From contig JACPBB010000001.1 of assembly GCA_016180525.1 (NCBI GenBank), positions 169,180 through 233,179 of the forward strand: DNA of 64,000 nt. The letters run 5' to 3'. Shown piece by piece: positions 1 to 43,554 of the stretch. Source of the stretch: Parcubacteria group bacterium. Lineage in GTDB: Bacteria; Patescibacteriota; Minisyncoccia; Phycocordibacterales; UBA2135. The notes beneath the pieces were generated by a model that was not told the origin of the DNA, did no database searches, and saw nothing but the letters and a program-made list of their open reading frames with translations. How positions within the stretch are numbered: the first letter of the stretch is position 1; each line of letters starts with the position of its first letter. The position numbers were made by a program, and so were the translations under genes.

Positions 1-3000
1 GAAACAACAAGCGTTCTTCCGTAGGGAATCGCGTACTCAATGCGTTCCCCTTTTTTCTTTCCAGCTCCCGCTTCCTCGGTTAATACCACGAGCACCTGCT
101 CATTCCCCTTGTTTTGAATTTCAAGAACCTCTCCGTCGGTACGAGAAACAACTGCGGGGTTTTTGGGAATGCGGCGTTCAAATACCTCTTCAACACGCGG
201 AAGACCTTTTGTAATATCAGATCCGGTAACACCTCCTTGGTGAAAAGTTCTCATGGTCAACTGCGTTCCCGGCTCTCCAATAGCTTGAGCCGCAATAACG
301 CCCACCGCCTCTCCTTGCTCAATTAATTTATGACGTCCCATATCAAGGCCGTAACAATTTCTGCAAAGACCATATACTGTCTTACAAGAAAGCGGGCTCC
401 GAATGAATACTTCTTCTGTACCCGCGTCTGTAATTTTTTTAATCTCTGCCCGTTTCAGAAGAGTCTTTTTAGGGACAATGACAACTCCGTCCGCACCGAC
501 AATATCTTTTACGATAATACGGCCTCCAATCACTTTTGTGAGAGAAACACCGATACCTGAAATATTTTCCTTTAAACTGACCCGACGCCCAACTTTATCT
601 CCGCAATCATCCTCCGTGATAATGACATCCTGGGCGACATCAACAAGCCGCCGCGTTAAATATCCGGCTTTCGCGGTTTGCAGTGCCGTGTCGGTAAGCC
701 CCTTTCTTGACCCGTGAGTAGTAATAAAATATTCAATAGGAGTAAGCCCTTCTTTGTAGGAGGAAACTATAGGGAAGTCAATTGGCACGCCAACGGTATT
801 CATCACAATCCCCTTCATGCCGGTCATCTGCGTAATGGGACCGAGAGAACCTCGGGCGCCTGATTTCCACATATCATGTACCGAGCCGTTAAGCGAAAGT
901 GTTCCGGGAATTGCCTTGGCAACTTCCTCTTTTGCTTTTTCCCAGACTTCAATAACCATTCTGTATCGCTCGACATCAGAGAGAAGCCCGCCGCTCCATT
1001 GTTCCATAATCTCCTTTTCTTTCTTTCTCGCCTCGGCAACAATGCGCTCTTTTTCTTTTGGAACCGCTAAGTCTTCCATGCCCCAGGTAATTCCCGACTT
1101 CGTCGCAAATTTGAATCCAAAATCTTTAATTTTATCGAGAATTGTCGTGATTCGTTCTACGGGATATTTCTCAATAATATTATCCATAATTTCGGAGAGA
1201 GCGCTTTTGTCCACCTCCGCGTTTATATATGGATAATCACTCGGGAGTACGCTGTTAAATAAAAGACGGCCAACAGAAGTTTCAAAAACACCACCCTTAA
1301 GTTGGGCATATTTTTCGGTTTCGGTCGCCATGACTTTTATTTTTGCCCGCAAACTCAAGATGCCGAAATCGTGCGCGGTGATAGCGAGGTTTGGGCTTCC
1401 AAAAACTTTACCCTCTCCTTTCTCACCAGGAAGTATTTTTGTAACCCAGTATGTTCCGAGCGTAATATCAAGCATTTTTGAAATAACTACCGGATATCCC
1501 GTTCCCGGTTTAAATATATTTTTATCCGCCGCCATTATTTCTCGGGCCTCTCCTTGCGCCTCTTTTGAGAGCGGCACGTGAACGGCCATCTGGTCTCCGT
1601 CAAAGTCAGCGTTAAATGCGGGACAAACAAGCGGATGCAATTCAATAGCGTTTCCTTCAATAAGAATTGGTTTAAACGCCTGCACGCCAAGCCGGTGAAG
1701 CGTCGGGGCCCTGTTTAAAAGAACGTATTTATCTTTGATAACATCTTCAAGAATAGCCCAGACTTCCGGTAGCCCTTCTTCAATAAGACGTCCGGCCCCC
1801 CTGATGTTGTACGCCAGTTCCTGTTTTAAAATTTCCGAAATAACAAATGGCCTAAACAGTTCAAGCGCCATGTGTTTTGGAAGGCCGCACTGGTCAAGCC
1901 TTAAGCTCGGGCCGACAACAATGACTGATCGCCCCGAATAATCAACCCGTTTACCCAATAAGTTTTGTCTAAAAAGCCCCTGTTTTCCTTTAAGGTTCTC
2001 CGACAGTGATTTTAAAACTTTTTTCCGGGCATGCGCGGCCTGCTGGGACGTAGAGCGACGCATTGAATTATCAAGAAGCGAGTCAACGGCTTCTTGAAGA
2101 ATTCTTTTTTCGTTACGCAAAATAACATCCGGAGCATTAATTTCCTTAAGTTTTTTAAGACGATTATTCCGATTTATAACACGTCGATACAAGTCATTCA
2201 CGTCGGAGGTGGCATGTCTTCCTCCGTCAAGAGCGACCATCGGCCGAAGCTGGGGAGGCATGACAGGTATCACCGTAAGAAACATCCATTCAGGACAAAC
2301 ATCGGCCTCTACAAGAGATTTAACCAAGGCGAGACGTTTTCGTATTTTAGTTTTTTCCGCGGCCGACGCTTCTTCAAAATCTGCTTCAAGCTGTGTCGCT
2401 AATTTTTCCAGATTTACTTTTTTCAGAAGATTATAGAGAGCCTCTGCGCCAATTTCCGCATGAAAAACACTTCCGTACTTCAGAGAAAAACGGTGATACG
2501 AAACCTCGTCAAGCACGGAACCTGCCCGCAGGTCTTCAATTTCTTTTCTTACTTCGGTAAAACGTTTCTTCAGAATTTCCTTTTCTTTCACGCTCTCGGC
2601 AATTTTTTGCTTTGATTTAAATTCTGATTCAAGGTCTTTTAAAATTTTATTTCGTTCGCCTTCGTATACCTCCGTCACCATGTAGCCGGCAAAATACACA
2701 ACTTTTTCAACATCGGAAAGAGAGAGGTTCAGTAAAAGTCCAATGCGTGAAGGCACTCCCCGCAAAAACCAAATATGAGAAACCGGCGAGGCAAGTTCTA
2801 TGTGGCCCATCCGCTCACGGCGCACGATTGATCGCGTTACCTCAACGCCGCACCGTTCGCAAATAATATTTTTGTAACGAATGCGGCGATATTTACCGCA
2901 ATAGCACTCGTAGTCTTTTGTGGGACCGAATATTCGCTCGTCAAAAAGTCCGTTACGCTCGCTTCTTCCGGTACGATAGTTTATGGTTTCTGCTTTCGTT

Positions 3001-3087
3001 ACCTCTCCGCGCGACCATTCCCGCATACGCTCGGGGGATGCGAGTTTGATAATGATTGAATTAAAGTCTTTTGTTTGTGGATTCATA
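1..3087 (-). CDS. rpoC: DNA-directed RNA polymerase subunit beta' (partial; 3' end beyond window start)
   Basis: Minus-strand reading frame starts at ATG 3087..3085 and translates [83 protein letters not shown]..., the canonical beta' N-terminus with its Zn-binding Cys motif. The frame stays open to position 1, so it is absent from the ORF track. It lies directly downstream of rpoB. Confidence 0.92.
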
Positions 3088-3091
3088 ATGC

Positions 3092-3170
3092 TAGGCTTTA
3101 GGCTTTAGGCTTTAGGCTTTAGGAATATCGTTTTTTCCTAGCGCCTAGTGCCTAATAACCTAGAGCCTCA
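3092..3170. repeat. Intergenic imperfect-palindrome element, copy 1: (TAGGCTT)x4-TAGG / 14-nt loop / CCTAGCGCCTAGTGCCTAA. It lies between the rpoB stop and the rpoC start, ending 4 nt before the rpoC ATG.
   Basis: Tandem 7-mer TAGGCTT x4 at 3092-3119. The downstream half (3137-3170) is its imperfect reverse complement in 5-bp modules separated by 2-nt mismatches. Two further copies with the same architecture are at 36887-36964 and 43202-43287. Confidence 0.8.
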
Positions 3171-3174
3171 ATAA

Positions 3175-6100
3175 TTACTTTTCATTGCTTAGCTCCACAT
3201 CAAGCGCAAGCGCTTTTAAATGATGCATGAGCACATTAAAAGATTCGGGTAAGTTCGGCTCTCGTAATTCCTCTCCTTTTATAATTGAATCAAACGTCGC
3301 CGCACGACCTAAAATATCGTCTGATTTCACGGTGAGCATCTCACGAAGTGTGTGCGCCGCGCCGTATCCTTCAAGCGCCCAGACTTCCATCTCTCCAAAC
3401 CTCTGCCCACCCCCTTGCGCCTTTCCTCCAAGTGGCTGCTGATGAATGAGCGAATACGGACCGATAGAGCGCATGTGGATTTTATCTTCAACCATGTGAT
3501 GCAATTTCATAATGTACATGTATCCGATGGCAATTTCTTGCTCAAACTGTTCTCCTGTGCGCCCGTCATAAAGTTTTACCTTTCCATTTTCATTGAAGCC
3601 GGCTTTTTTGAGTTCCTGTTTAATTTCCTCTTCTGTCGCGCCCAAAAACGGAGGAGTAATCGCCTGATAATTAAGCGTGTGCGCGGCAAGTCCGAGATGC
3701 AGCTCTAAAATCTGCCCCAAGTTCATACGAGACGGAACTCCAAGCGGAGTTAAAATAACGTCAATCGGGGTGCCGTCAGCGAGGTATGGCATTTCTTCTG
3801 TGGGAAGAATTTTTGAAATAACTCCCTTGTTGCCGTGTCGCCCCGCAAGCTTGTCTCCCACCGTTACGGTGCGCAGCTGTGCAACTTCCACATGAATGCG
3901 CTTGATGGTTCCTGAATCAAGCTCGTCGCCGTTGTCGCGAGAAAATACCTTAACCCGTATGACACGCCCCCGCTTTCCGTGCTCCATTCTTTTTGAAGTA
4001 TCTTTTACGTCACGCGCTTTTTCTCCGAAAATTGAACGCAGGAGCCGCTCTTCGGGAGTGAGCTCCGCTTCTCCTTTGGGGGTAATTTTCCCGACTAAAA
4101 TATCGTTCGGCCCCACTTCAGCGCCGACCATCACAATCCCGTCTTCATCAAGATTTTTCAGCTTTGCTTCTCCGACATTTGGTATGTCGTGGGTTGTAAT
4201 TTCAGGACCAAGTTTCGTATCTCGGACGTTTACCTGAAACTCATCAACATAAAGAGACGTAAAGACATGGTCGCGCACAAGCCGCTCCGATAAAATAATG
4301 GCGTCTTCATAGTTCGCCCCGCTCCATGACATAAACGCGACAAGAACGCTCTGCCCGAGAGAAATTTCTCCGTCAACAGTTGAAGCATTATCGGCAAGGG
4401 GCGTCCCCTTTTTAACTTTTTGCCCAAGCTCCACTATCGGACGCTGCCTGAACGCGGTGACTTCGTTTGTTTTTACGAAATTTACCAGTTTATATTCTTT
4501 CTCTTTGTTCTTTTTTGCTTTAGAATTTTTAGTAATAATTTTATTTCCATCAACGGCAATAACAGTTCCCTCTTCTTCGGCAACAACAATTCTACCGGAG
4601 TCGGCGGCCGCTTTCCCTTCAATGCCTGTAGCAACACGCGGTCTCTGCGGAATAATGCACGGCACCGCCTGCTTTTGCATGTTTGAACCCATGAGCGCCC
4701 TGTTCGCGTCATCATGTTCAAGAAATGGAATAAGAGATGTCGCGACAGAAAACGGCTGGTTTGAGGCAACGTCAATAAAATGAACGTCCTTGGTGCTCAC
4801 AAGCCGAACCTGACCTTCTTTGCCTTTCGCGCGAACTTCCACGAACTTCTCCACAAAAACACCATCGTCGTTATAGGCGGTTGCCGCGTGCGCAATATTA
4901 TAATTTTCCTCTTCAATGGCGTTTAAATAGACGATTTCTTTTGTCACGATGCCATCTACAACTTTAAGATACGGGGTTTCAATAATCCCAAACTCATTTA
5001 CACGGGCAAACATCGAAAGACGAAGGATGAGCCCGATACTCTGTCCTTCAGGGGTGTGAATGGGACAGACACGTCCATAGTGAGACGGGTGCACGTCTCG
5101 CACTTCAAAACCGGCTCTCTCGCGAGTAAGTCCACCCGGGCCAAGCGCGGAGAGCGTGCGCAAGTGTTCAAGCTCGTCAAGCGCGTTTTTTTGGTTCATG
5201 TATTGAGTAAGTTGGTGCGTGTTGAAAAATTCTTTAATAGATGTCTGCAACGGTCTTGGGTTTATAAGTTGCACGGGAAGCATTGTTTCGGGATCCGTTG
5301 TCGACATTCTGTCTTGAATATTGCGCTTCATGCGGGAAAGCCCGACCCGAATGCGCTGTTCAAGCATTTCCCCCATAAAGCGAACGCGCCGGACGCCTAG
5401 GTGATCAATATCGTCACCTTCCGCTCCGGGAGTGTGGTTGAGCGTAATAATATGAGAAATAATGGTCACTAAGTCGTCCGCGGAGATAGTGCGTCTGTCC
5501 ACCTCTTTCTTATCCATGCTTTTATTGAACATTTTGTTAAATCGGTAACGTCCGACCGGAGAGAGGTCATAGCGCTCAGCGCCGAATATCCCGTCAATGA
5601 ATTCCTTCGCGTTTTCAGCAGAAGCCAATGTGCCGTCACGAAGCCGTTTATATATTTCAATATATGATTCATCCACCGTGTGCGCGGCGTCTTTCGCGAT
5701 TGATGTTTTAATGTATTGAACTGCGTGCTCATTGCCTTTAAAAAGATTCAGCAATTCTGCTTCAGTTTTGGCACCGCTGAATATTCGGAGAAGTGCCGTA
5801 GCGGAAATTTTTCGTTTTTTATCTATACGGACGTAAATCGCCCCGTCTGCTTCTGATTCAATTTCAATCCACGCGCCACGGGAAGGAATTATTTTTGCTC
5901 CAAAATATTTTACTCCACGTGTTTCCTGTTCGTTGAAGAACACTCCGAATGAACGAGCAAGCTGAGAGACCACAACGCGCTCGTTACCGTTAATGATAAA
6001 CGTGCCGTGCGGAGTCATAATCGGGAAATCCACAAGGAAAATTTCCTGTTCTTTTTCTTTACCAAGATTTTTGTTTTTTAGTTTGACGATTGCCCGAAGC

Positions 6101-6345
6101 GGAGCCTGAAGCGTCAGTTTATTTTCCTTCGCATAAAATTCGTCAAATAGAGGCTCCGCGAGTTCAAACGAGATAAATTCCAAATCAAACTTTTTTCCGG
6201 AATAGTCGGAAATAGGAGAAAATTCTTTAAACAAACCTTTGAGATCTTCGGTGACAAGTTTTTTATATGAACGAACCTGTGGCTCCACCAAGTCAGGCGG
6301 AGTAAGAATCGGTTTTTTATATTTTGAAAAATATTTTTTTTGCAT
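3175..6345 (-). CDS. rpoB: DNA-directed RNA polymerase subunit beta
   Basis: 1056-aa ORF with hallmark rpoB motifs (…GEMEVWALEGYGAAHTLREMLTVKSDD…, …RFGEMEVWAL…) and full-length collinearity with bacterial beta subunits. Confidence 0.97.
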   Translation of the reverse strand: MQKKYFSKYKKPILTPPDLVEPQVRSYKKLVTEDLKGLFKEFSPISDYSGKKFDLEFISFELAEPLFDEFYAKENKLTLQAPLRAIVKLKNKNLGKEKEQEIFLVDFPIMTPHGTFIINGNERVVVSQLARSFGVFFNEQETRGVKYFGAKIIPSRGAWIEIESEADGAIYVRIDKKRKISATALLRIFSGAKTEAELLNLFKGNEHAVQYIKTSIAKDAAHTVDESYIEIYKRLRDGTLASAENAKEFIDGIFGAERYDLSPVGRYRFNKMFNKSMDKKEVDRRTISADDLVTIISHIITLNHTPGAEGDDIDHLGVRRVRFMGEMLEQRIRVGLSRMKRNIQDRMSTTDPETMLPVQLINPRPLQTSIKEFFNTHQLTQYMNQKNALDELEHLRTLSALGPGGLTRERAGFEVRDVHPSHYGRVCPIHTPEGQSIGLILRLSMFARVNEFGIIETPYLKVVDGIVTKEIVYLNAIEEENYNIAHAATAYNDDGVFVEKFVEVRAKGKEGQVRLVSTKDVHFIDVASNQPFSVATSLIPFLEHDDANRALMGSNMQKQAVPCIIPQRPRVATGIEGKAAADSGRIVVAEEEGTVIAVDGNKIITKNSKAKKNKEKEYKLVNFVKTNEVTAFRQRPIVELGQKVKKGTPLADNASTVDGEISLGQSVLVAFMSWSGANYEDAIILSERLVRDHVFTSLYVDEFQVNVRDTKLGPEITTHDIPNVGEAKLKNLDEDGIVMVGAEVGPNDILVGKITPKGEAELTPEERLLRSIFGEKARDVKDTSKRMEHGKRGRVIRVKVFSRDNGDELDSGTIKRIHVEVAQLRTVTVGDKLAGRHGNKGVISKILPTEEMPYLADGTPIDVILTPLGVPSRMNLGQILELHLGLAAHTLNYQAITPPFLGATEEEIKQELKKAGFNENGKVKLYDGRTGEQFEQEIAIGYMYIMKLHHMVEDKIHMRSIGPYSLIHQQPLGGKAQGGGQRFGEMEVWALEGYGAAHTLREMLTVKSDDILGRAATFDSIIKGEELREPNLPESFNVLMHHLKALALDVELSNEK

Positions 6346-8592: not shown

Positions 8593-9234
8593 TCAATAGA
8601 GCTTCCTCTTCCTCCATTCCGCTATTTTTTTGTGGTCGCCGGAGAGAAGAATTTTGGGGACTGCGTATTTTCTTTTTTTATGAACTATTATTTCCGGACG
8701 AGTGTAGACTTCCGAAGATGTCTCGCGTGACTCTTCAAGCGACTCATGTGTGCCGAGCACCCCTTTCATCTGCCGCGCTGTCGCGTCAATGACAATCATC
8801 GCGGGAAGCTCCCCTCCCGTGAGAATATAGGGACCGATAGAGATTTTTTCCGCCTTTAAAATTTTTGCCACGCGCTCATCAACCCCTTCGTAGTGTCCCG
8901 CGATTAAAATGATATCGGCATATGTTTTGGAAATTTTTTTTGCGTAGACATTCGTGAATTGCTTGCCGTCTGCGGCAAAAAGAATGACTTTGGCATTCTT
9001 TTTGCCGCGCCTGATTTTATCAACTATTTTTACAATCGGCTCAACTTTAAGCACCATACCGGGGCCTCCGCCATATGGCTTGTCATCTGCAACTTTGTGT
9101 TTCCCTTTCGCGAAATCGCGTATATCGTAAATTTTTACAGCGATTTTTCTGTTTTTCACCGCGCGCTTCAGCATTGACTCATTGAGATATGAGAAACTGT
9201 TTGGAAATAATGTGAGAATGTGAAACCGAACCAT
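8593..9234 (-). CDS. trmD: tRNA (guanine37-N1)-methyltransferase
   Basis: 213 aa; signature …DDKPYGGGPGMVLKVEPI… and SPOUT-fold collinearity. Downstream of rpsP and the KH-protein gene, as in canonical operons. Confidence 0.92.
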   Translation of the reverse strand: MVRFHILTLFPNSFSYLNESMLKRAVKNRKIAVKIYDIRDFAKGKHKVADDKPYGGGPGMVLKVEPIVKIVDKIRRGKKNAKVILFAADGKQFTNVYAKKISKTYADIILIAGHYEGVDERVAKILKAEKISIGPYILTGGELPAMIVIDATARQMKGVLGTHESLEESRETSSEVYTRPEIIVHKKRKYAVPKILLSGDHKKIAEWRKRKLY

Positions 9235-9328
9235 AAAATTAGAATATAGAATTACGAATTATGAATCAAGGAAAACAAAAACTCCCCGAAAAATAATTGA
9301 GGGGAGTTTTTGTTTTTAGAATCGCAGA

Positions 9329-9646
9329 TTAGAGCTTGAGATCATCCATTGCTCTGTCTACGTCGCTTGAAGCTCGAGATCGTTTTCCGCCCTCGGGCTC
9401 GCTAATTTTCAAATTAACCCGCGCGTTGTTTTTGATGCCGACCACTCGCAGAAGCGTGCGGATAGCTTTCGCTGTCGCACCCATTCGGCCAATGACTGTT
9501 CCCATATCTTCGGGAGCAACATCAAGCGTCATAAGGACGCCCATTTCGTCAACTTCTCGTTTGACTTTAACCGCGCTCGGGTTGCTTACTAATGCCTTCA
9601 CTACTACTTCAAGAAAATCTTGGTCTTTTAATTCTTTAGAAGCCAT
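9329..9646 (-). CDS. KH-domain RNA-binding protein (UPF0109/KhpA-like)
   Basis: 105 aa with a …VIGRMGATAKAIRTLLRV… KH core. Conserved position between rpsP and trmD. Confidence 0.8.
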   Translation of the reverse strand: MASKELKDQDFLEVVVKALVSNPSAVKVKREVDEMGVLMTLDVAPEDMGTVIGRMGATAKAIRTLLRVVGIKNNARVNLKISEPEGGKRSRASSDVDRAMDDLKL

Positions 9647-33897: not shown

Positions 33898-33972
33898 TGA
33901 CCTCACCGGGATTTGAACCCGGGTTTCAGCGTTGAGAACGCCGCGTCCTGGACCAGGCTAGACGATGAGGCC
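33898..33972 (-). tRNA. tRNA-Glu (anticodon CUC)
   Basis: Minus-strand GGCCTCATCGTCTAGCCTGGTCCAGGACGCGGCGTTCTCAACGCTGAAACCCGGGTTCAAATCCCGGTGAGGTCA. Cloverleaf with 7-bp acceptor (one G-U), anticodon stem CGGCG/CGCTG, loop TTCTCAA (anticodon CTC), T-arm CCGGG-TTCAAAT-CCCGG. No encoded CCA. Confidence 0.85.
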
Positions 33973-34139
33973 AGCAAGTGCTTCGCACTAAAAATTCTAA
34001 ATCCTAATTTCTAAACATTAAGAAATAGACTTTAAAATCATACCATATTTTGAGAAAAAATCTATTGGATTATATATGAATATGCGGCAAATTTATTTTA
34101 TACTGTATAATAGAAGTAATGAAAAAAGGAGAACTACGC

Positions 34140-35806: not shown

Positions 35807-36412
35807 TTATATATTTTTTAAAACTAAAAAATCTTTTTTTAATGTATCAAGAAGCGTTCTATTGTACACGGCGGCCGCGGGATGATAGAGGGCCACGATT
35901 TTAATTGCTCCATGTGATGCGTTTGCTTCAAATACTTTTCCGTGTAATTTACTGATGGGCGCCAATTCTTCCCATAAATTAAATGTTTCAAGAATAAAAT
36001 TCATGGAGTATCTTCCAAGCGTTGCTAAAACAGAGGGTTGAATAATTTCAATTTGGCGAGTCAGAAACGGGGCATAAGCCCTTATTTCTTCAGGAAGCGG
36101 GTCACGGTTACGAGGCGGCCTGTCTTTTACAATATTTGTAATATATACTTCTTCTCGCTTAAGTCCCGCGGAAATAAGGAGCTCGTCTAAAATTTTTCCC
36201 GCTGTACCGCAAAACGGCCTTCCGGTTGCCGCCTCATTTCTTCCGGGCGCCTCCCCGATAAACATAATACGTGCGTCGTGACTCCCCTCGCCAATCACCG
36301 GATACACTTTGTTTTTTGTTCTTTCTTCAAACAGGGGTAAGTCATTTCCATCCAACACCTCATCTCGTATTTCTTTAAGGAGGTCGTGTTTTGTTTTATT
36401 AGATTTCTCCAT
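35807..36412 (-). CDS. uracil-DNA glycosylase, family 4-type
   Basis: Motif A GEGSHDARIMFIGEAPGRNEAATGRPFCGTAGKIL and the UDG-superfamily fold pattern. Start taken at MEKSNKTKHD; it overlaps the upstream mgtC-like gene by 14 nt. Confidence 0.8.
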   Translation of the reverse strand: MEKSNKTKHDLLKEIRDEVLDGNDLPLFEERTKNKVYPVIGEGSHDARIMFIGEAPGRNEAATGRPFCGTAGKILDELLISAGLKREEVYITNIVKDRPPRNRDPLPEEIRAYAPFLTRQIEIIQPSVLATLGRYSMNFILETFNLWEELAPISKLHGKVFEANASHGAIKIVALYHPAAAVYNRTLLDTLKKDFLVLKNI

Positions 36413-36881
36413 TACTCCATTTTCCCGATACTTTTTTAATTCGCGTTTCAAAAAACCAGAGTATCGTGAAAATAAACAAAGTAACAATTGTCGCGAAGGT
36501 AGCAATCGCATAAAGGCCAAACCCAGAGGCCATACCGATGCCCGCGGCAACCCATAATCCTGCGGCAGTCGTTATCCCCTCAACATGGCTGCCCCGAAAA
36601 ATAATAACCCCAGCGCCTAAAAATCCGATACCGGTTACAATCTGCGCCGCAACACGAAGTGGGTCAAAATTTGTAACGCCGACAAACTGGCTTGAAATAA
36701 TAACTGATACTGCAACAAAAAGTGCCGAGCCCATTGATACAAGAGCATAGGTACGCAGACCCGCTGTTTTATGAGCACGCTCGCGCTCAAGACCAAGAAT
36801 CCCGCCAAGAACAGCCGCCACAAGTAAGTGCGCAAATATAGACAATGTCTCCGCGTCAATAAAAAAACCAAATAAGTCCAT
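36399..36881 (-). CDS. MgtC/SapB family membrane protein
   Basis: 160 aa, …LGGILGLERERAHKTAGLRTYALVSMGSALF…; family signature. Confidence 0.85.
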   Translation of the reverse strand: MDLFGFFIDAETLSIFAHLLVAAVLGGILGLERERAHKTAGLRTYALVSMGSALFVAVSVIISSQFVGVTNFDPLRVAAQIVTGIGFLGAGVIIFRGSHVEGITTAAGLWVAAGIGMASGFGLYAIATFATIVTLFIFTILWFFETRIKKVSGKWSNGEI

Positions 36882-36886
36882 AGTAC

Positions 36887-36964
36887 TAGGCTTTAGGATT
36901 TAGGCTTTAGGCTTTAGGAGTTTCTGTTTTCCTAATGCCTAGCGCCTAACGCCTAGTGCCTTAA
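36887..36964. repeat. Intergenic imperfect-palindrome element, copy 2 (TAGGCTT-TAGGATT-TAGGCTT-TAGGCTT-TAGG / loop / TAATGCC-TAGCGCC-TAACGCC-TAGTGCC)
   Basis: Starts 6 nt upstream of the mgtC-like ATG (36881) and ends about 27 nt after the Cas4-like gene stop (36991). Confidence 0.8.
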
Positions 36965-36990: not shown

Positions 36991-37806
36991 CTAAAACAAT
37001 GTGTCTTTCTTTTTTGTTTTTGAAGAAGGCAACTGTTTGTTGAATTTTGCCGCTCTTTGTATTATTTCCACTGCTGCGTTTCTATATGAGCAAAAATCAC
37101 AGTCAGGAGATGCTTTTGGAACCTCATCACCCATAAGACAGTTTCGTGCCTTAACGAGAGTGTCGGAAACCCAGTCGTCTTTTCCTGTGTAAGGAATCAC
37201 TGTCACGTCAAATTCAAGTTTGCCATCAAACGCTTCTCTGTCACGGAGGGCATTTGCATAAACAAAATATCCCGTGGAAGAAACTTTAAAATCGTTTTGT
37301 CTGAAAAGCCACTGATATATTTCCATCTGCCGCTTGTAGCCGTCTTGCCATTTCGCATCAAGCGTAATCTCATCATTTTTACTTGTCGCTTTGTAATCAA
37401 CGATGTGTAACTCCTCTTTGGGCGTAACCCAAACATCATCAATTGCTCCGAACACAAAAAAATTGCTCTCTGTATGAAGATACGAAACCCCTTTAAACGT
37501 GTCTCGCCATTTTTCTATATCTCTATGCTCAAAAGGAATTGCATCAATCTTATAAACTTTCATAAGTGGATGCGCTTCATTTTTTGCTCGATGCGCGTCA
37601 AACTCTTTTTTAAGAAGCGTATCAACCGCGCTGTTTAAAGTAAACGGGAATCCTGGAGGTCTTCCAACTCCCAATCGTCGGTCAATATAAAAACAACGCG
37701 GACATTCTAAAAACAGGTCTATTTTGGAGCGGCTTAATTTAAATGGCTCCGTACTATCGGGGTCAAATAAATTTCTTGAACGTTTGGGATTATAATATTG
37801 GCTCAT
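36991..37806 (-). CDS. Cas4/RecB-like PD-(D/E)XK nuclease with Fe-S cysteines (standalone)
   Basis: N-terminal …LECPRCFY…, core …GAIDDVWV…IVDYKAT… (D/E-x-K), RecB-family QhxxY (QMEIYQWLF), C-terminal C-x11-C-x2-C. Confidence 0.65.
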   Translation of the reverse strand: MSQYYNPKRSRNLFDPDSTEPFKLSRSKIDLFLECPRCFYIDRRLGVGRPPGFPFTLNSAVDTLLKKEFDAHRAKNEAHPLMKVYKIDAIPFEHRDIEKWRDTFKGVSYLHTESNFFVFGAIDDVWVTPKEELHIVDYKATSKNDEITLDAKWQDGYKRQMEIYQWLFRQNDFKVSSTGYFVYANALRDREAFDGKLEFDVTVIPYTGKDDWVSDTLVKARNCLMGDEVPKASPDCDFCSYRNAAVEIIQRAAKFNKQLPSSKTKKKDTLF

Positions 37807-40701: not shown

Positions 40702-43197
40702 TCAACGAAACAATGGATTAAAAGCGGAGAGAATATTGGCAAATATAGTTAATACGTCGAGAGATGATGTGGGCGGAGGTGGGGGTGGCTGTGAGAAATC
40801 TCCTGGGGGAGACGTGAAACTGCCGCTTGTCCCCCCATCAAAACTGCCTGTTGGCGGAGGCGGCACAAACGAACTGCTTCCTTCAAAGCTTCCGCTTGGT
40901 GGCGGTGGTACAAAAGTTCCTTCCTGATGAAATTCTCCACTTGGAGAACCTCCCGGTGGTGGAGGAGTAAACCCAGCATCGGGCTGAGTAAAGCTTCCTT
41001 CTGGAGGATGCGAAAAGTCTCCTGGTGGCGAAGCAAATGAACCGGGGTTAAAACTACCGCTCGTCCCGCCGCCAAAACTTCCCGGTGGCGGAGGAGCAAA
41101 CCTATCATCAGGCTGGGTAAAGCTTCCTGAGTGGTCTTCAAAACTTCCCGTTGGTGAAAAAGTATTCGGTTGGGGAGCAAAGTTACCAGTTGCGGGTGGC
41201 TGAGTAAAACTTCCTCCAGGGGGATGCGGAAAATTGCCATCAGGCGGAGTAAAACTTCCGGGTTGAGGAAAGCCATGAAACTTACCACGGTCCTCACCGC
41301 TTCCGTCAAATCCATCACGCCCGCCGGGGAAACCACCTGGCTGAAAACCTGGAAATTCACTCGATTCAAATTCATCACCTTCGTTGCCTTCCCTTCTCGG
41401 AAATCCAAAGCCTGGCGGTGGAGGAAGACCGCGGAATTGACCATCTTCGCCATCTCTTTGAAATCTATCCTGATCAAGAAATTGTTCTGGAAGTGGAGCG
41501 GAGTGTCCTTCTCGTTCAAACTGCGCTCGCTGTTCGTCCGAAATTTGAAATTCTTCTCCTTCATGAAAGCCTTCACGAAATCCTTGACCCTGAATGAAAT
41601 CACCTTGTTGTGGAATTCTGCCCTGCTCAAATTCCCCTCTCAGTTGCTTAAATTGCTCAAATCGCGACTTAAACTGCTCCTCAACCTTACTTCGCTCTTC
41701 CGGAGGAATATTTTCAAACCCTGGTGGAAATCCACCCTCACCCGAGGGACCAAAACCCTGTCCAGGAAACCCTTGAGGACCACCACCCGAAAAGCCAGAA
41801 GGACCAAATCCTTGTGGGCTGCCAGGTCCAAATCCTTGAGGGTTAAAACCTCCCGGACCGGGTGGGCCAAAACCTCCTTGAGGCCCACGTGGTCCAAAAT
41901 GCTCAACTTCAATAAATTGACGGAGCGACTGTTCGGCTTCGTCAGGAGAAAGAAATCCTTCATTGACTGCAAATGCGGCGCACTCATCAAAATGTGAAGT
42001 GTCCGTGCAATATGTCCGACATTCCCTCTCTCCGCGACACCCACCAGGTCCGCCTTGCTCCTCTACTTTCTTTTCAATATTCTTAAACTTTTCAATGCGC
42101 TCTAACTCTCCCGGCGGCAACAGATTGTTGTTTTTTGCAAATTCAAAACATTGCTCGCGATTGTCGGGATTATTGCAAAATGCCTCACATTCTCTTCCTT
42201 TACACCCACCAGGACCGCCATGTTCCTCAACGACACTTACAAAGCGATTAATTTCTTCAAACTCCTCATCATTCATAAAACCTTGTGCATGCGCAAAATT
42301 AAGACACTCCCGTTCATGCCCAGGCGCTTCACAGTATGCCTCACATGCTCTCCCACGACATCCGCCAGGGCCTTCAGCGCTTGACAGTCGTTTAAATTTT
42401 TCGGCTTCCGCGGGGTCCATGAGCCCGTGCTCTATTGCGAAATTGAAACAGACCTCTTCGTTTCCTGCCGTTGAGCAAAACTCTTCACATGCGTCAAAAT
42501 CTTCACAACCACCAGGTCCACCGCCTAATTCAGCAAGAACTTGTGCGGCCCTTGATTCATCTATTCGTGGCCCTCCAGGACCAGGACCTCCTCTTCGCGA
42601 AGCCTGTGGACCAAACTCACCTGCTCCTCTAAACCCTCCTGCTTCATTGTTTAAAAATGATTTTATTTGCCGAGCTTGTTCAGCAGTCATGTGTCCTTCA
42701 GCAACGGCAAAATCAATACATTCAATTTGATTTCCCGGCTCACTGCAAAAATCCCGACATTCCTCTTCGCCACGACATCCGCCAGGGCCACCTCGCGCTT
42801 GTTGTTCTCTAATTCTAGCTGCTTCCTCGGATGATATATGACCGTGTTCTACGCCATATTGAAGACATTCGTCCGAGTGAGCCGGGTCGTTGCAATATGA
42901 AAAACATTCGTTTTCATCCGAGCACCCACCAGGACCTTCTCTAACTTCAACATCCCGGGGCTCCTCTACCTCAATGCCATGTTCATTTGCCCAAGTGATG
43001 CATACATTTTCGTTGTCAGGATTATCACAAAACGTGTGACATTCTTCTAGATTGGTGCAGTTGCCAAGTTCGGCAATTGGAAATTCTATATCAAATGGAT
43101 TTTGCGCGTGCGCAGCAAACGCGAATGCAAAAAGAAAGACAACAACAGGAACGGCTATAAAAAATAAAATAGTGAGTTTGTGTTTAAAAGAATTCAT
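40702..43197 (-). CDS. large secreted protein: signal peptide + seven tandem about 45-aa 4-Cys repeats (GGPGGC-x5-C-x3-C-x7-C-x2-FA…G…EA) + about 450-aa Gly/Pro/Phe/Gln/Glu-rich disordered tail
   Basis: 831 aa; signal MNSFKHKLTILFFIAVPVVVFLFAFAFAAHA; repeats such as PGGCRGEEECRDFCSEPGNQIECIDFAVAEGHMTAEQARQIKSF. Tail holds GSFTQP and PPPPxGSF repeats and ends hydrophobic (…LDVLTIFANILSAFNPLFR). Confidence 0.8.
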   Translation of the reverse strand: MNSFKHKLTILFFIAVPVVVFLFAFAFAAHAQNPFDIEFPIAELGNCTNLEECHTFCDNPDNENVCITWANEHGIEVEEPRDVEVREGPGGCSDENECFSYCNDPAHSDECLQYGVEHGHISSEEAARIREQQARGGPGGCRGEEECRDFCSEPGNQIECIDFAVAEGHMTAEQARQIKSFLNNEAGGFRGAGEFGPQASRRGGPGPGGPRIDESRAAQVLAELGGGPGGCEDFDACEEFCSTAGNEEVCFNFAIEHGLMDPAEAEKFKRLSSAEGPGGCRGRACEAYCEAPGHERECLNFAHAQGFMNDEEFEEINRFVSVVEEHGGPGGCKGRECEAFCNNPDNREQCFEFAKNNNLLPPGELERIEKFKNIEKKVEEQGGPGGCRGERECRTYCTDTSHFDECAAFAVNEGFLSPDEAEQSLRQFIEVEHFGPRGPQGGFGPPGPGGFNPQGFGPGSPQGFGPSGFSGGGPQGFPGQGFGPSGEGGFPPGFENIPPEERSKVEEQFKSRFEQFKQLRGEFEQGRIPQQGDFIQGQGFREGFHEGEEFQISDEQRAQFEREGHSAPLPEQFLDQDRFQRDGEDGQFRGLPPPPGFGFPRREGNEGDEFESSEFPGFQPGGFPGGRDGFDGSGEDRGKFHGFPQPGSFTPPDGNFPHPPGGSFTQPPATGNFAPQPNTFSPTGSFEDHSGSFTQPDDRFAPPPPGSFGGGTSGSFNPGSFASPPGDFSHPPEGSFTQPDAGFTPPPPGGSPSGEFHQEGTFVPPPPSGSFEGSSSFVPPPPTGSFDGGTSGSFTSPPGDFSQPPPPPPTSSLDVLTIFANILSAFNPLFR

Positions 43198-43201
43198 GTG
43201 T

Positions 43202-43287
43202 TTAGGCTCTAGGTGGTTAGGCCTTAGGCTTTAGGAATATTAGAAGTTTTTATTTTTCTAATGCCTAGTGCCTAGCGCCCAATGCCT
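43202..43287. repeat. Intergenic imperfect-palindrome element, copy 3
   Basis: TTAGGCTC-TAGGTGG-TTAGGCC-TTAGGCT-TTAGG / AT-rich loop / TAATGCC-TAGTGCC-TAGCGCC-CAATGCC. Starts 5 nt upstream of the 43197 ATG. Confidence 0.8.
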
Positions 43288-43290
43288 CAT

Positions 43291-43554
43291 TTACTGTTGA
43301 AACGGATTAGTTACGGCTCCTTCAAAAGGGTTTTTGTATCCTTCTTCAAAGGGATTCACTGTTTCCGCAAACGGGTTTGCCGCCTCCGCAATCGCCTCTT
43401 GCGCGGCTTTTTTTTCTGCCTCAACGGCTGCTGCCTGTTCTGCCACATATGCCTTTTTCCCTTGCAAAACTCCAATAAAATAACCGCCCCCCGCACCAAC
43501 AAGAAGCGCGACAATCGCTGCGATAATTAATTTGTTTTGTGGATGGTCTTCCAT
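43291..43554 (-). CDS. small single-pass membrane protein with four C-terminal NPF motifs
   Basis: 87 aa; TM LIIAAIVALLVGAGGGYFIGVL, an Ala/Glu-rich helix, tail …ANPFAETVNPFEEGYKNPFEGAVTNPFQQ. Confidence 0.55.
   Translation of the reverse strand: MEDHPQNKLIIAAIVALLVGAGGGYFIGVLQGKKAYVAEQAAAVEAEKKAAQEAIAEAANPFAETVNPFEEGYKNPFEGAVTNPFQQ

What the first reader, a model, noticed from the sequence alone, without database searches (positions are those of the whole stretch)
3092..3170. Family of (TAGGCTT)n hairpin elements positioned 4-6 nt upstream of minus-strand start codons, including the rpoB-rpoC junction (copies at 3092-3170, 36887-36964, 43202-43287)
The three copies share the same architecture. 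There are 4-5 tandem TAGGCTT-like heptamers, an AT-rich 14-25-nt loop, and 3-4 CCTAGNG/TAATGCC heptamers that are the imperfect reverse complement. This predicts a long stem of 5-bp helices separated by 2-nt internal loops. Each copy lies between two co-directional genes, and its heptamer side ends 4-6 nt before the downstream ATG, so no Shine-Dalgarno can fit. In E. coli the rplL-rpoB and rpoB-rpoC intergenic regions carry attenuator and RNase III processing hairpins. These elements may be the analogous processing, attenuation or translation-control sites, but they form a dispersed repeat family.
Basis: seen in the sequence. Interest (0 to 1): 0.65.

Follow-up and report, generated by a model that had tools for sequence, protein, structure and literature searches.

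The report
Heptamer-built hairpin repeats between genes
Three copies of a roughly 75-base hairpin built from 7-base repeats sit between neighbouring genes, including rpoB and rpoC, of a Parcubacteria genome; they belong to a dispersed repeat family found in several bacterial phyla, not to a conserved rpoBC control site.

Summary
Three hairpins (window 3092-3169, 36887-36962, 43203-43288) have one arm of (TAGGCTT)n and one of (GCCTARY)n. They fold at -30 to -41 kcal/mol (z -3.3 to -6.0). Each ends exactly 5 nt before a minus-strand ATG.

The same architecture turned up in at least 117 loci of a 185,579-species genome set, mainly Patescibacteria and Bacteroidales, with some Cyanobacteria and others. 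Of 131 elements, 129 are intergenic. Of those between co-directional genes, 68 have the window's orientation and 26 the opposite (p=1.7e-5). They usually fill the whole stop-to-start spacer and are frequent in ribosomal-protein operons.

The element is not a conserved rpoBC regulator. Relatives with 87% identical RpoB have 9- and 19-nt AT-rich spacers. None of 75 measurable metagenomic relatives has it, but a few carry unrelated heptamer hairpins at the same junction. It has no U-tract and matches no Rfam family. About two thirds of the window's genes lack a Shine-Dalgarno anyway.

Best reading: a REP/MITE-like palindromic relative of the heptamer repeats known near start codons, inserted into tight operon junctions and transcribed as an easily unzipped hairpin. 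Any role in coupling or processing is untested.

The parts
3092..3169 (-). Copy 1 of the heptamer hairpin. It fills the rpoB-rpoC spacer. Plus-strand arm (TAGGCTT)4+TAGG at 3092-3123, loop, then (GCCTARY)-type arm at 3137-3169.
   Evidence: (-38.8 kcal/mol on the mRNA strand, z -5.8).
36887..36962 (-). Copy 2, between the PD-(D/E)XK nuclease gene and the MgtC-family gene. It lies 5 nt from the MgtC ATG and 28 nt from the upstream stop.
   Evidence: (-35.2 kcal/mol, z -5.8). Identical in five independent read-set assemblies.
43203..43288 (-). Copy 3, the most degenerate, with a longer loop. It lies between an 87-aa ORF (stop 2 nt away) and an 831-aa ORF (ATG 5 nt away).
   Evidence: (-29.9 kcal/mol, z -4.1).
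1..3086 (-). rpoC (beta-prime). ATG at 3086-3084. The gene runs off the left edge of the window.
   Evidence: translation. In relatives the gene following rpoB carries the RNA_pol_Rpb1 Pfam domains.
3175..6345 (-). rpoB (beta), 1056 aa. Its TAA stop at 3177-3175 lies 5 nt before the hairpin.
   Evidence: six Rpb2 Pfam domains. (100% identical to a Parcubacteria MAG protein).
36399..36881 (-). MgtC-family gene downstream of copy 2.
36991..37806 (-). PD-(D/E)XK nuclease-family gene upstream of copy 2.
40702..43197 (-). 831-aa ORF with no Pfam match, downstream of copy 3.
43291..43554 (-). 87-aa ORF with no Pfam match, upstream of copy 3. Whether it is a real gene was not established.

Best explanation
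Each element is a copy of a dispersed, multi-phylum family of palindromic intergenic repeats whose two arms are tandem heptamer arrays: (TAGGCTT)n facing (GCCTARY)n.

Shown:
- The rpoB-rpoC copy is an insertion of about 79 nt into what is, in relatives, a 9-20-nt AT-rich spacer without a Shine-Dalgarno.
- Family members share lineage-specific loop sequences at unrelated loci, which implies copy-and-paste spread.
- Unit number drifts between orthologous copies, which fits slippage.
- Copies sit almost only in intergenic DNA. They prefer tight junctions between co-directional genes and have a 72:28 orientation bias.

Inferred:
- The element is transcribed within the operon mRNA and folds into a long but 'soft' hairpin of 5-bp helices broken every 7 nt.
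- The fold keeps the upstream stop codon and the downstream start codon physically adjacent, and a ribosome can unzip it stepwise. Translation of rpoC, by re-initiation or SD-independent initiation, would then continue much as it does across the short spacer of relatives.
- Every arm carries TAG or TAA at a 7-nt period, so all reading frames are closed on both strands.
- On this reading the element is primarily a tolerated, selfish or neutral repeat of the REP/MITE kind, built from heptamer repeats like those known near start codons. Any effect on mRNA stability, RNase III processing or coupling strength is a by-product, not the conserved reason the site exists.
For: - Structure and non-randomness.
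By my estimate about 25 matches would occur by chance. Matches carry a mean of 3.7 units per arm, more than the pattern requires, with median length 74 nt and median energy -34 kcal/mol.
- Taxa, from record titles: about 66 Patescibacteria loci, 38 Bacteroidota, 5 Cyanobacteria and 8 others.
- Insertion status: L121 and L122 (87% RpoB identity) have 9- and 19-nt spacers. In 75 metagenomic relatives the median spacer is 20 nt and none holds this element, but L152, L183 and L118 hold different heptamer hairpins and L196 and L194 hold other hairpin inserts.
- Copy-and-paste: shared loops across loci and genomes, for example TAGCTAGTTTCCTAG in Nomurabacteria and TTCGGCGAAGCTTC in Muribaculaceae.
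- Unit-number change between orthologous copies: L083 versus L104.
- Placement: 129 of 131 intergenic against 87% coding sequence. 81% lie at co-directional junctions, against 70% expected by junction number and 62% by length. Residual spacer median 23 nt against a background of 67 nt.
- Orientation: 68 to 26, p=1.7e-5.
- No mRNA-strand-specific wobble signature and no unit-by-unit compensation. Both fit a DNA repeat rather than a selected RNA fold.
- Period 7 dominates tandem arrays in these genomes, as reported generally (Mrazek 2007, cited in PMC4679880).
- No Rfam family matches.
Against: - No transposase, target-site duplication or empty/filled pair within a species was found, so mobility is inferred, not shown.
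- The very tight, orientation-dependent spacing to start codons looks more ordered than random tolerated insertion. In 37 of 68 cases the gap is at most 6 nt, and five of the seven copies in one Saccharibacteria ribosomal-protein operon are followed directly by CTAGAAC-ATG or CTAGAAT-ATG.
- The same heptamer core across at least 8 phyla, with conserved mismatch identity (TT facing RY), suggests recognition by some conserved factor.
- A hairpin of about -35 kcal/mol ending 5 nt before the ATG of an essential gene should cost translation unless it is used.
Confidence: 0.6

Rival explanations
1. It is a selected intercistronic RNA device. The hairpin sequesters the region just 5' of the start codon, so the downstream gene is translated only when a ribosome finishing the upstream gene unzips the stem base (strict translational coupling). 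Alternatively or additionally, it is an RNase III or 3'-exonuclease-blocking site that sets segmental mRNA stability, as at phage T7 intercistronic sites or Neisseria Correia hairpins.
For: - Orientation bias of 68:26 and an ATG 2-6 nt from the stem in most orientation-A copies.
- The upstream stop lies a median of 8 nt from the stem, within reach of a terminating ribosome.
- Enrichment at tight co-directional junctions.
- Recurrence in operons that need balanced output: rpoBC, S10/spc, L10-L12, S12-S7, infA-S13, atp.
- Other hairpins occupy the same rpoB-rpoC junction in other relatives.
- The stem is longer than 20 bp, as RNase III requires (the requirement is from my own knowledge).
Against: - Absent at the same junction in the closest relatives, which manage with 9-20-nt spacers.
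- 22 of 116 classifiable copies lie between convergent or divergent genes, and 26 are in the opposite orientation.
- The mRNA-sense strand is not the more stable one, and the strand asymmetry is the same in both orientations.
- No compensatory arrangement of variant units.
Confidence: 0.25
2. It is an array of binding sites for a protein that reads single-stranded RNA or DNA in a 7-nt register. That could be an oligomeric regulator of the HutP type (UAG-N4-UAG-N4-UAG), or a strand-specific recombinase or transposase that recognises the folded, periodically mismatched hairpin, as RAYT, IS200/IS605 TnpA or integrases do.
For: - The mRNA-sense 5' arm reads (C-UAG-GCR)n, that is UAG every 7 nt. 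The HutP site rule is from my own memory.
- The arm core and the identity of the mismatches (TT facing RY) are conserved across phyla while loops vary.
- Arms keep equal unit numbers: 106 of 133 within one unit.
- Heptamer direct repeats near start codons elsewhere have been proposed to bind an unidentified factor (PMC4679880; bioRxiv 10.1101/2022.06.06.494920).
Against: - No candidate protein was identified. No transposase family appears in the partial lists of flanking-gene families, which show only the top 25 of about 130 families per side.
- The sites are buried in a stem in the folded form.
- Only partial genomes could be examined.
Confidence: 0.1
3. It is a transcription attenuator or terminator between rpoB and rpoC.
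For: A strong stem-loop lies inside the rpoBC operon.
Against: - No U-tract follows the stem on either strand, and the scan finds no terminator-like site there.
- rpoC is essential and lies immediately downstream.
- The element is absent from relatives.
- The same element sits inside ribosomal-protein operons seven times in 8 kb.
Confidence: 0.03
4. Each copy arose locally, by slippage of a spacer heptamer plus template switching that created the inverted arm. On this view it is not a mobile or copied family.
For: - Period-7 arrays are the commonest tandem repeats in these genomes.
- Direct heptamer arrays occur in other spacers, including the trmD leader and L140 and L142.
- Heptamer hairpins of unrelated sequence occupy the same junction in L118, L152 and L183.
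Against: The three window copies and more than 100 copies elsewhere share the same heptamer, the same arm asymmetry and, within lineages, the same loops at unrelated loci. Independent local origin does not explain this.
Confidence: 0.1

Closest known systems
Contiguous heptamer direct repeats next to start codons: TAACTGA repeats of Beggiatoaceae, Cyanobacteria and Bacteroidetes (MacGregor 2015, PMC4679880), cyanobacterial STRR-type heptamers, and Nostoc recF/recO heptamers (bioRxiv 10.1101/2022.06.06.494920)
   Same: - The unit is 7 nt and arrays hold 2-6 copies.
- They are intergenic, usually a few nt upstream of a start codon in the forward orientation.
- They occur inside ribosomal-protein operons, usually with no canonical ribosome-binding site nearby.
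- Their phylogenetic distribution is patchy across Bacteroidetes and Cyanobacteria.
- Their function is unknown, and a binding factor or a translational role has been proposed.
   Different: - Those are direct arrays. Here two different arrays face each other as an inverted repeat and form a hairpin of about 25 bp.
- The heptamer sequence differs.
- The main hosts here are Patescibacteria and Bacteroidales.
REP/BIME and REPIN elements of Proteobacteria
   Same: - Short imperfect palindromes, extragenic and in many copies, often between co-directional genes of one operon and transcribed with them.
- They are not conserved at orthologous sites.
- They have conserved asymmetries between the arms.
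- They are known to act as mRNA 3'-end stabilisers (own knowledge).
   Different: - REP arms are not tandem heptamer arrays.
- REPs carry a conserved GTAG-type head and are associated with a RAYT transposase. Neither was shown here.
- REP families are lineage-specific, whereas this core recurs in several phyla.
Neisseria Correia/NEMIS and other MITEs (ERIC, RUP, BOX)
   Same: - Roughly 100-nt elements whose inverted ends fold in mRNA.
- They are inserted close to genes and co-transcribed.
- NEMIS hairpins are cut by RNase III and alter mRNA levels (own knowledge). This is a plausible model for how the element here might act.
   Different: - MITEs have terminal inverted repeats flanking unrelated internal sequence, target-site duplications and a parent IS.
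- Here the whole element is the inverted repeat, no duplication was seen, and no parent element is known.
Phage T7 intercistronic RNase III sites and the E. coli rplL-rpoB processing hairpin
   Same: An imperfect long stem with internal loops lying between cistrons of one transcript.
   Different: - Those are single, conserved, site-specific signals, not a dispersed repeat family.
- Cleavage is not testable here.
- The E. coli site is upstream of rpoB, not between rpoB and rpoC (own knowledge).

Membership tests
Heptamer (STRR/TAACTGA-type) start-codon-proximal repeats | Tandem arrays of a 7-nt unit | tested here: met
   TRF reports period 7, 4.6 copies, 92-100% matches at 3092 and 36887. Mean 3.7 units per arm in 133 elements.
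Heptamer (STRR/TAACTGA-type) start-codon-proximal repeats | Intergenic, ending a few nt upstream of a start codon | tested here: met
   5 nt in all three window copies. Median 5.5 nt in 68 orientation-A copies.
Heptamer (STRR/TAACTGA-type) start-codon-proximal repeats | Direct repeats only, with no inverted partner array | tested here: not met
   Every copy has a complementary second array and folds as a hairpin.
REP/REPIN | Extragenic imperfect palindrome in multiple copies | tested here: met
   129 of 131 copies are intergenic. There are 3 copies in 64 kb.
REP/REPIN | Conserved GTAG-type 5' tetranucleotide and a 20-40-nt single palindrome | tested here: not met
   The arms are 3-5 tandem heptamers of TAGGC/GCCTA, the whole element is about 75 nt, and there is no GTAG head.
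REP/REPIN | A cognate RAYT (Y1 transposase) gene in the genome, flanked by REPs | not testable with these tools
   Only 64 kb of this genome and 8-kb loci of others were available. No transposase family appears in the flanking-gene lists, which show only the top 25 of about 130 families per side.
MITE | Target-site duplication flanking the element | tested here: not met
   No consistent direct repeat at the boundaries of 94 copies or of the window copies.
MITE | Presence/absence polymorphism at orthologous sites | tested here: met
   Filled in the window and empty in L121, L122 and 75 relatives. These are different species, not strains.
Intrinsic terminator / attenuator | G+C-rich stem followed by a U-tract | tested here: not met
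   No T-run follows the stem, and the scan finds no terminator-like site at the element.
RNase III processing site | About 20 bp or more of double-stranded RNA in the transcript | tested here: met
   Predicted stems of about 25 bp. This is an in-silico result only.
RNase III processing site | Cleavage within the stem in vivo | not testable with these tools
   No transcript-end data were available.
Integron attC site | R'' (RYYYAAC) in the 5' arm and R' (GTTRRRY) in the 3' arm, between mobile cassettes near an integrase | tested here: not met
   The arm order is the reverse (TAGGC in the 5' arm, GCCTA in the 3' arm on either strand). The flanking genes are rpoB, rpoC and ribosomal-protein genes.
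Any Rfam family | Score at or above the family's gathering threshold | tested here: not met
   Only a tRNA in the whole window. At the element there are only sub-threshold generic miRNA-hairpin matches.

The most novel reading that the evidence does not exclude
Heptamer-periodic hairpins may be a previously unrecognised, horizontally shared class of modular intercistronic elements in bacteria that make little use of Shine-Dalgarno sequences (Patescibacteria, Bacteroidales, Cyanobacteria). On this reading they insert precisely between a stop and a start codon. They would be read in a 7-nt register by a conserved but unidentified RNA- or ssDNA-binding factor, or used by the ribosome for termination-reinitiation across the stem base. 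That would set the expression ratios of core operons such as rpoBC and the ribosomal-protein operons.
Probability: 0.2. Interest if true: 0.8.

Novelty: new variant of a known kind. Interest (0 to 1): 0.55.

Why it matters
If the family is only a tolerated selfish repeat, it still matters in three ways.
- It is a useful marker.
- It probably breaks assemblies. Contig L212 begins inside copy 2, and runs of N abut copies in L064 and L100.
- It shows that ultra-small genomes of the candidate phyla radiation tolerate 75-nt palindromes inside rpoBC and ribosomal-protein operons.

If the ordered placement reflects function, it would expose a translation-coupling or mRNA-processing mechanism in lineages whose gene expression is almost unstudied. 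It would also give a concrete handle on the long-standing question of what heptamer repeats next to start codons do in Cyanobacteria, Beggiatoaceae and Bacteroidetes. The ordered features are placement flush with stop and start codons, a 72:28 orientation bias, and the same core in several phyla.

Tried and rejected
- **Rfam.** The whole window at gathering threshold and copy 1 at E<=10 gave only generic miRNA-like hairpin noise.
- **Literature search by raw sequence.** It returned only HIV primer hits. Searches for heptamer repeats in the candidate phyla radiation found nothing.
- **Terminator or attenuator.** No U-tract and no terminator-like site at the element.
- **attC.** GCCTAAC/GTTAGGC-like strings occur, but the arm order is reversed and the neighbours are core genes. 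Rejected.
- **Covariation.** A first count on minimum-free-energy pairs suggested matched variants between arms (148/197 against 120.5 permuted). A fairer control that refolds after permuting the units shows no difference (+0.12 kcal/mol, p=0.56). I treat the first result as an artefact of the fold.
- **mRNA-strand wobble signature.** The strand asymmetry is small and is the same in both orientations.
- **Target-site duplications.** None seen.
- **Strain-level polymorphism of copy 2.** Five other assemblies are identical.
- **Exact look-up of the window's RpoB.** Not on record.
- **blastn against plasmids and phages.** No match. This is weak evidence, because the low-complexity filter may mask the query.
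- **IMG/VR pattern scan.** One viral contig has three Muribaculaceae-type copies and another has one copy. Two further loci look like chance hits.
- **The inverted-repeat tool.** It missed the elements because no exact seed of 8 nt exists in 5-bp helices.

Full report
**1. Observation**

The three elements are at the coordinates given. On the plus strand each begins with four or five TAGGCTT-like heptamers. An A/T-rich loop follows, and then three to five units of GCCTA plus two variable bases, mostly G or A followed by C or T.

A scan of the window finds exactly three clusters of TAGGC/GCCTA. All 11 occurrences of TAGG-N3-TAGG lie inside them, against 0.76 expected from shuffles. The pentamers themselves are otherwise under-represented.

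RNAfold gives long hairpins on both strands. Energies are -29.9 to -41.5 kcal/mol, with z-scores of -3.3 to -6.0 against dinucleotide shuffles. The stems are 5-bp helices separated by 2x2 internal loops.

The three copies align at 74% mean column identity. The arm next to the start codon, (CCUAAAG)n in mRNA sense, is nearly identical in all three.

**2. Surroundings**

The window comes from a Parcubacteria-group MAG: its RpoB is 100% identical to P0001, which lies on a 344-kb contig.

- Copy 1 lies between rpoB (3175-6345, six Rpb2 domains) and rpoC (ATG at 3086).
- Copy 2 lies between a PD-(D/E)XK nuclease gene and an MgtC-family gene.
- Copy 3 lies between an 87-aa and an 831-aa ORF, neither with a Pfam match.

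All six genes are on the minus strand. In all three cases the last heptamer ends 5 nt before the ATG. The upstream stop lies 5, 28 and 2 nt from the other end of the element.

No Shine-Dalgarno fits, but this is not special. Only about 20 of 65 crude gene calls in the window have any SD-like tetramer within 20 nt, and most leaders are simply A/T-rich. No promoter-like or terminator-like site is found at copy 1, and no Rfam family matches.

**3. The family elsewhere**

I searched one genome per GTDB species for the exact pattern TAGGCTTTAGG-N8-30-CTARYGCCTA. I estimate about 25 chance matches for a pattern of this information content in 596 Gb.

The hits are not chance.
- They carry a mean of 3.7 heptamers per arm, more than the pattern demands.
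- Their median length is 74 nt and median energy -34 kcal/mol.
- Many genomes have several copies.

By record title, about 66 loci are Patescibacteria (Saccharibacteria, Nomurabacteria, Paceibacterota, Kaiserbacteria and others). A further 38 are Bacteroidota, mostly Muribaculaceae, Prevotellaceae and other Bacteroidales. Five are Cyanobacteria (Moorena, Chamaesiphon). Single or double hits come from Terriglobales, Victivallales, Planctomycetota, Hydrogenedentes, Thermomicrobiales and a gammaproteobacterium.

Within lineages, copies at unrelated loci share loop sequences:
- TAGCTAGTTTCCTAG or GCTTTTTGATTTGC in Nomurabacteria and relatives;
- TTCGGCGAAGCTTC in Muribaculaceae;
- GGAAT...TTCC in this window and in UBA2135.

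This points to copying of whole elements. Orthologous copies in two Muribaculaceae/Porphyromonadaceae species (L083 and L104) differ by a heptamer unit, which fits slippage.

**4. Placement statistics**

Using crude ORF-based gene calls on the loci, 129 of 131 unique elements are intergenic, although 87% of the sequence is coding.

| Context | Count |
|---|---|
| Between co-directional genes | 94 |
| Convergent | 11 |
| Divergent | 11 |
| At a locus edge | 13 |
| Overlapping an ORF call by more than 25 nt | 2 |

Co-directional junctions account for 81% of the classifiable copies. The expectation is 70% by junction number (p=0.03) and 62% by intergenic length (p=2e-4).

Among the 94 co-directional cases, 68 have the window's orientation, with the AAGCCTA arm next to the downstream start. 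The other 26 have the opposite orientation (binomial p=1.7e-5).

- In the major orientation the ATG lies a median of 5.5 nt from the element (37 of 68 within 6 nt), and the upstream stop a median of 8 nt away.
- In the minor orientation the TAGGCTT arm abuts the upstream stop (median 5.5 nt), and the start is further away (median 19.5 nt).
- The TAGGCTT side is therefore the one flush with a gene in both orientations.

The residual spacer has a median of 23 nt, against 67 nt for element-free co-directional junctions. The elements occupy tight operon junctions and essentially fill them.

Flanking genes are housekeeping genes and are rich in translation genes: S5, S7, S8, S11, S12, S13, L10, L7/L12 and L18, IF-1, ATP synthase b and c, aminoacyl-tRNA synthetases, RecA, and RNase III twice. 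No transposase family appears in the lists of flanking-gene families, but each list shows only the top 25 of about 130 families.

One Saccharibacteria contig (L064) carries seven copies in 8 kb of the S10/spc ribosomal-protein operon. They stand before S19, L22, L16, L14, S14, S8 and S5. Five are followed directly by CTAGAAC-ATG or CTAGAAT-ATG.

**5. Is it a conserved rpoBC control site? No.**

The two closest relatives (RpoB 87% identical) have rpoB-rpoC spacers of TACTTTTCT and ATAAAAATAATAATTTTCT. These are 9 and 19 nt, with no hairpin and no SD.

A metagenome scan returned 80 relatives whose RpoC N-terminus is 66-71% identical. In the 75 I could measure, the median spacer is 20 nt, 62 are shorter than 50 nt, and none has the TAGGCTT element.

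A minority carry other insertions at the same junction.
- Heptamer hairpins of unrelated sequence: (AATCAAA)n/(TTTTGAT)n in L118, which is 85% identical in RpoB; (CYAATAG)n/(CTATMAG)n in L152, at -39.5 kcal/mol; and (CAACCAA)n/(GGTTGTA)n in L183.
- Direct 7-mers in L140 and L142.
- Large unrelated hairpins in L194 and L196.

So the junction is repeatedly and independently occupied by hairpin-forming inserts, but usually it is empty. Removing 3092-3170 from the window leaves a spacer of about 9 nt, the same size as in L121.

**6. RNA fold or DNA palindrome?**

- Strand stability. The plus-sense strand (TAGGCTT arm first) is slightly more stable than its complement, because T facing G becomes A facing C on the other strand. 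The difference is about 1-2 kcal/mol and is the same whichever strand is transcribed.
- Compensation. A first count suggested that variant units are matched between arms. When units of one arm are permuted and the sequence refolded, the real arrangement is no more stable. There is therefore no unit-by-unit compensation.
- Unit number. The arms do keep similar unit numbers (means 3.68 and 3.68; 106 of 133 within one unit; r about 0.4).

Together these results fit a palindromic DNA repeat whose arms are homogenised by slippage. They neither prove nor exclude selection on the RNA.

**7. Context of heptamer repeats**

Period 7 is by far the commonest period among tandem arrays with about three or more copies. 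It accounts for 18 of 26 such arrays in 413 kb of Parcubacteria sequence.

Published work gives the closest precedents.
- MacGregor 2015 (PMC4679880) summarises Mrazek's finding that heptanucleotide repeats are the most abundant long simple repeats in prokaryotes.
- The same paper describes TAACTGA direct repeats lying a few nt upstream of start codons in Beggiatoaceae, Cyanobacteria and Bacteroidetes. They usually lack a ribosome-binding site, occur inside ribosomal-protein operons, and have no known function.
- A Nostoc study reports effects of heptamer repeats next to recF and recO on reporter expression and postulates an unidentified binding partner (bioRxiv 10.1101/2022.06.06.494920).

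I found no paper describing the TAGGCTT hairpin, or heptamer hairpins in the candidate phyla radiation. The library is not exhaustive.

**8. Mechanism**

Shown:
- The element is an insertion.
- It belongs to a copied family.
- The family is confined to intergenic DNA, prefers tight co-directional junctions and has an orientation bias.

Inferred:
- The element is transcribed within the operon and folds.
- With internal loops every 7 nt, the stem can be opened helix by helix.
- A ribosome stopped at the rpoB stop codon, 5 nt from the stem, would already have opened its base and freed the nucleotides just 5' of the rpoC ATG.
- The folded remainder keeps the stop and start codons side by side, so initiation can proceed much as across the 9-20-nt spacers of relatives.
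- Each arm contains TAG or TAA at a period coprime with 3, so every frame is closed within 21 nt on either strand, and read-through products cannot form.

This makes the element tolerable at exactly the places where it is found. I rank a tolerated selfish or neutral palindromic repeat first (0.6). A selected coupling or processing device comes second (0.25). The ordered spacing and orientation bias are the main arguments for the second reading, and the absence from close relatives is the main argument against it. A 7-nt-register binding array, either a HutP-like UAG-N4 rule or a recombinase recognising the mismatched hairpin, remains possible (0.1). Terminator/attenuator and attC readings are rejected.

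**9. Verdict**

This is a new variant of known kinds (REP/MITE-like palindromic repeats and start-codon-proximal heptamer repeats), notable for its hairpin-of-heptamers architecture, its spread across phyla and its stop-to-start placement. Interest 0.55.

Noticed in passing
window 9235-9271 (minus-strand leader of trmD, gene 8593-9234); L118 8236-8271; L121 8352-8395: Direct heptamer repeats (TTCATAA TTCGTAA TTCTATA TTCTAAT) run right up to the trmD ATG, just after a terminator hairpin. The same array is present in a relative with 85% identical RpoB and is weaker in a relative with 87%. This is a conserved leader with 7-nt periodicity, of the kind described for TAACTGA repeats.
   Followed up: partly
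window 9272-9316: A perfect 16-bp inverted repeat (AAAACAAAAACTCCCC / GGGGAGTTTTTGTTTT) lies between the KhpA-like gene (9329-9646) and trmD. With A- and T-runs on both sides, it looks like a two-way intrinsic terminator inside what is elsewhere an operon.
   Followed up: no
L064 1-8000 (Saccharibacteria contig CAYVZN010000002.1): Seven heptamer hairpins lie in 8 kb of the S10/spc ribosomal-protein operon. They have extra outer arms of (TAGCTTY)n. In five of them the spacer before the ATG is CTAGAAC or CTAGAAT. The outer arm contains AGGAAG about 9 nt from the ATG, a possible buried SD-like motif.
   Followed up: partly
L118 13160-13296; L152, L183, L196 and L194 rpoB-rpoC spacers: In other Parcubacteria the rpoB-rpoC junction holds unrelated inserts. 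There are heptamer hairpins built from AATCAAA, CTAATAG and CAACCAA units, a 294-nt hairpin at -96 kcal/mol, and a 168-nt structured insert. The junction looks like a recurrent landing or tolerance site.
   Followed up: partly
window, whole: Outside the three elements, the pentamers TAGGC and GCCTA occur at well under half the frequency expected from shuffles. The element is therefore built from words the genome otherwise avoids (CTAG-type avoidance).
   Followed up: no
window 33992-34015, next to tRNA 33898-33972 (minus strand): A short 7-nt periodic tract (AAATTCT AAATCCT AATTTCT) lies immediately 5' of a tRNA gene.
   Followed up: no
window 51035-51065 and 51138-51170 (inside the 933-aa ORF 49062-51863): Two period-7 DNA tracts (AATCTGA and AATTTGA) lie inside a coding region. 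By its TTRPDTLFGATY motif the ORF looks like leucyl-tRNA synthetase (own recognition). The tracts encode KFQISSLKFQI and DLRLQISNW on either side of that motif. Heptamer periodicity inside a gene is unusual.
   Followed up: partly
Muribaculaceae loci L029, L034, L083, L090, L093, L104: The loop of the Muribaculaceae subfamily contains GGCGAAGC. This includes GCGAAGC, a sequence known to form an unusually stable DNA mini-hairpin (own knowledge).
   Followed up: no
L212 (contig starts inside copy 2); L064 and L100 (runs of N next to elements): Contig ends and masked stretches coincide with the elements. They probably break short-read assemblies of these genomes.
   Followed up: no
L207 and L203 (IMGVR_UViG_3300045988_178469): One 23-kb contig classed as viral carries three Muribaculaceae-type copies. 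It could be a prophage or phage vector for spread, or a misclassified chromosomal fragment.
   Followed up: no
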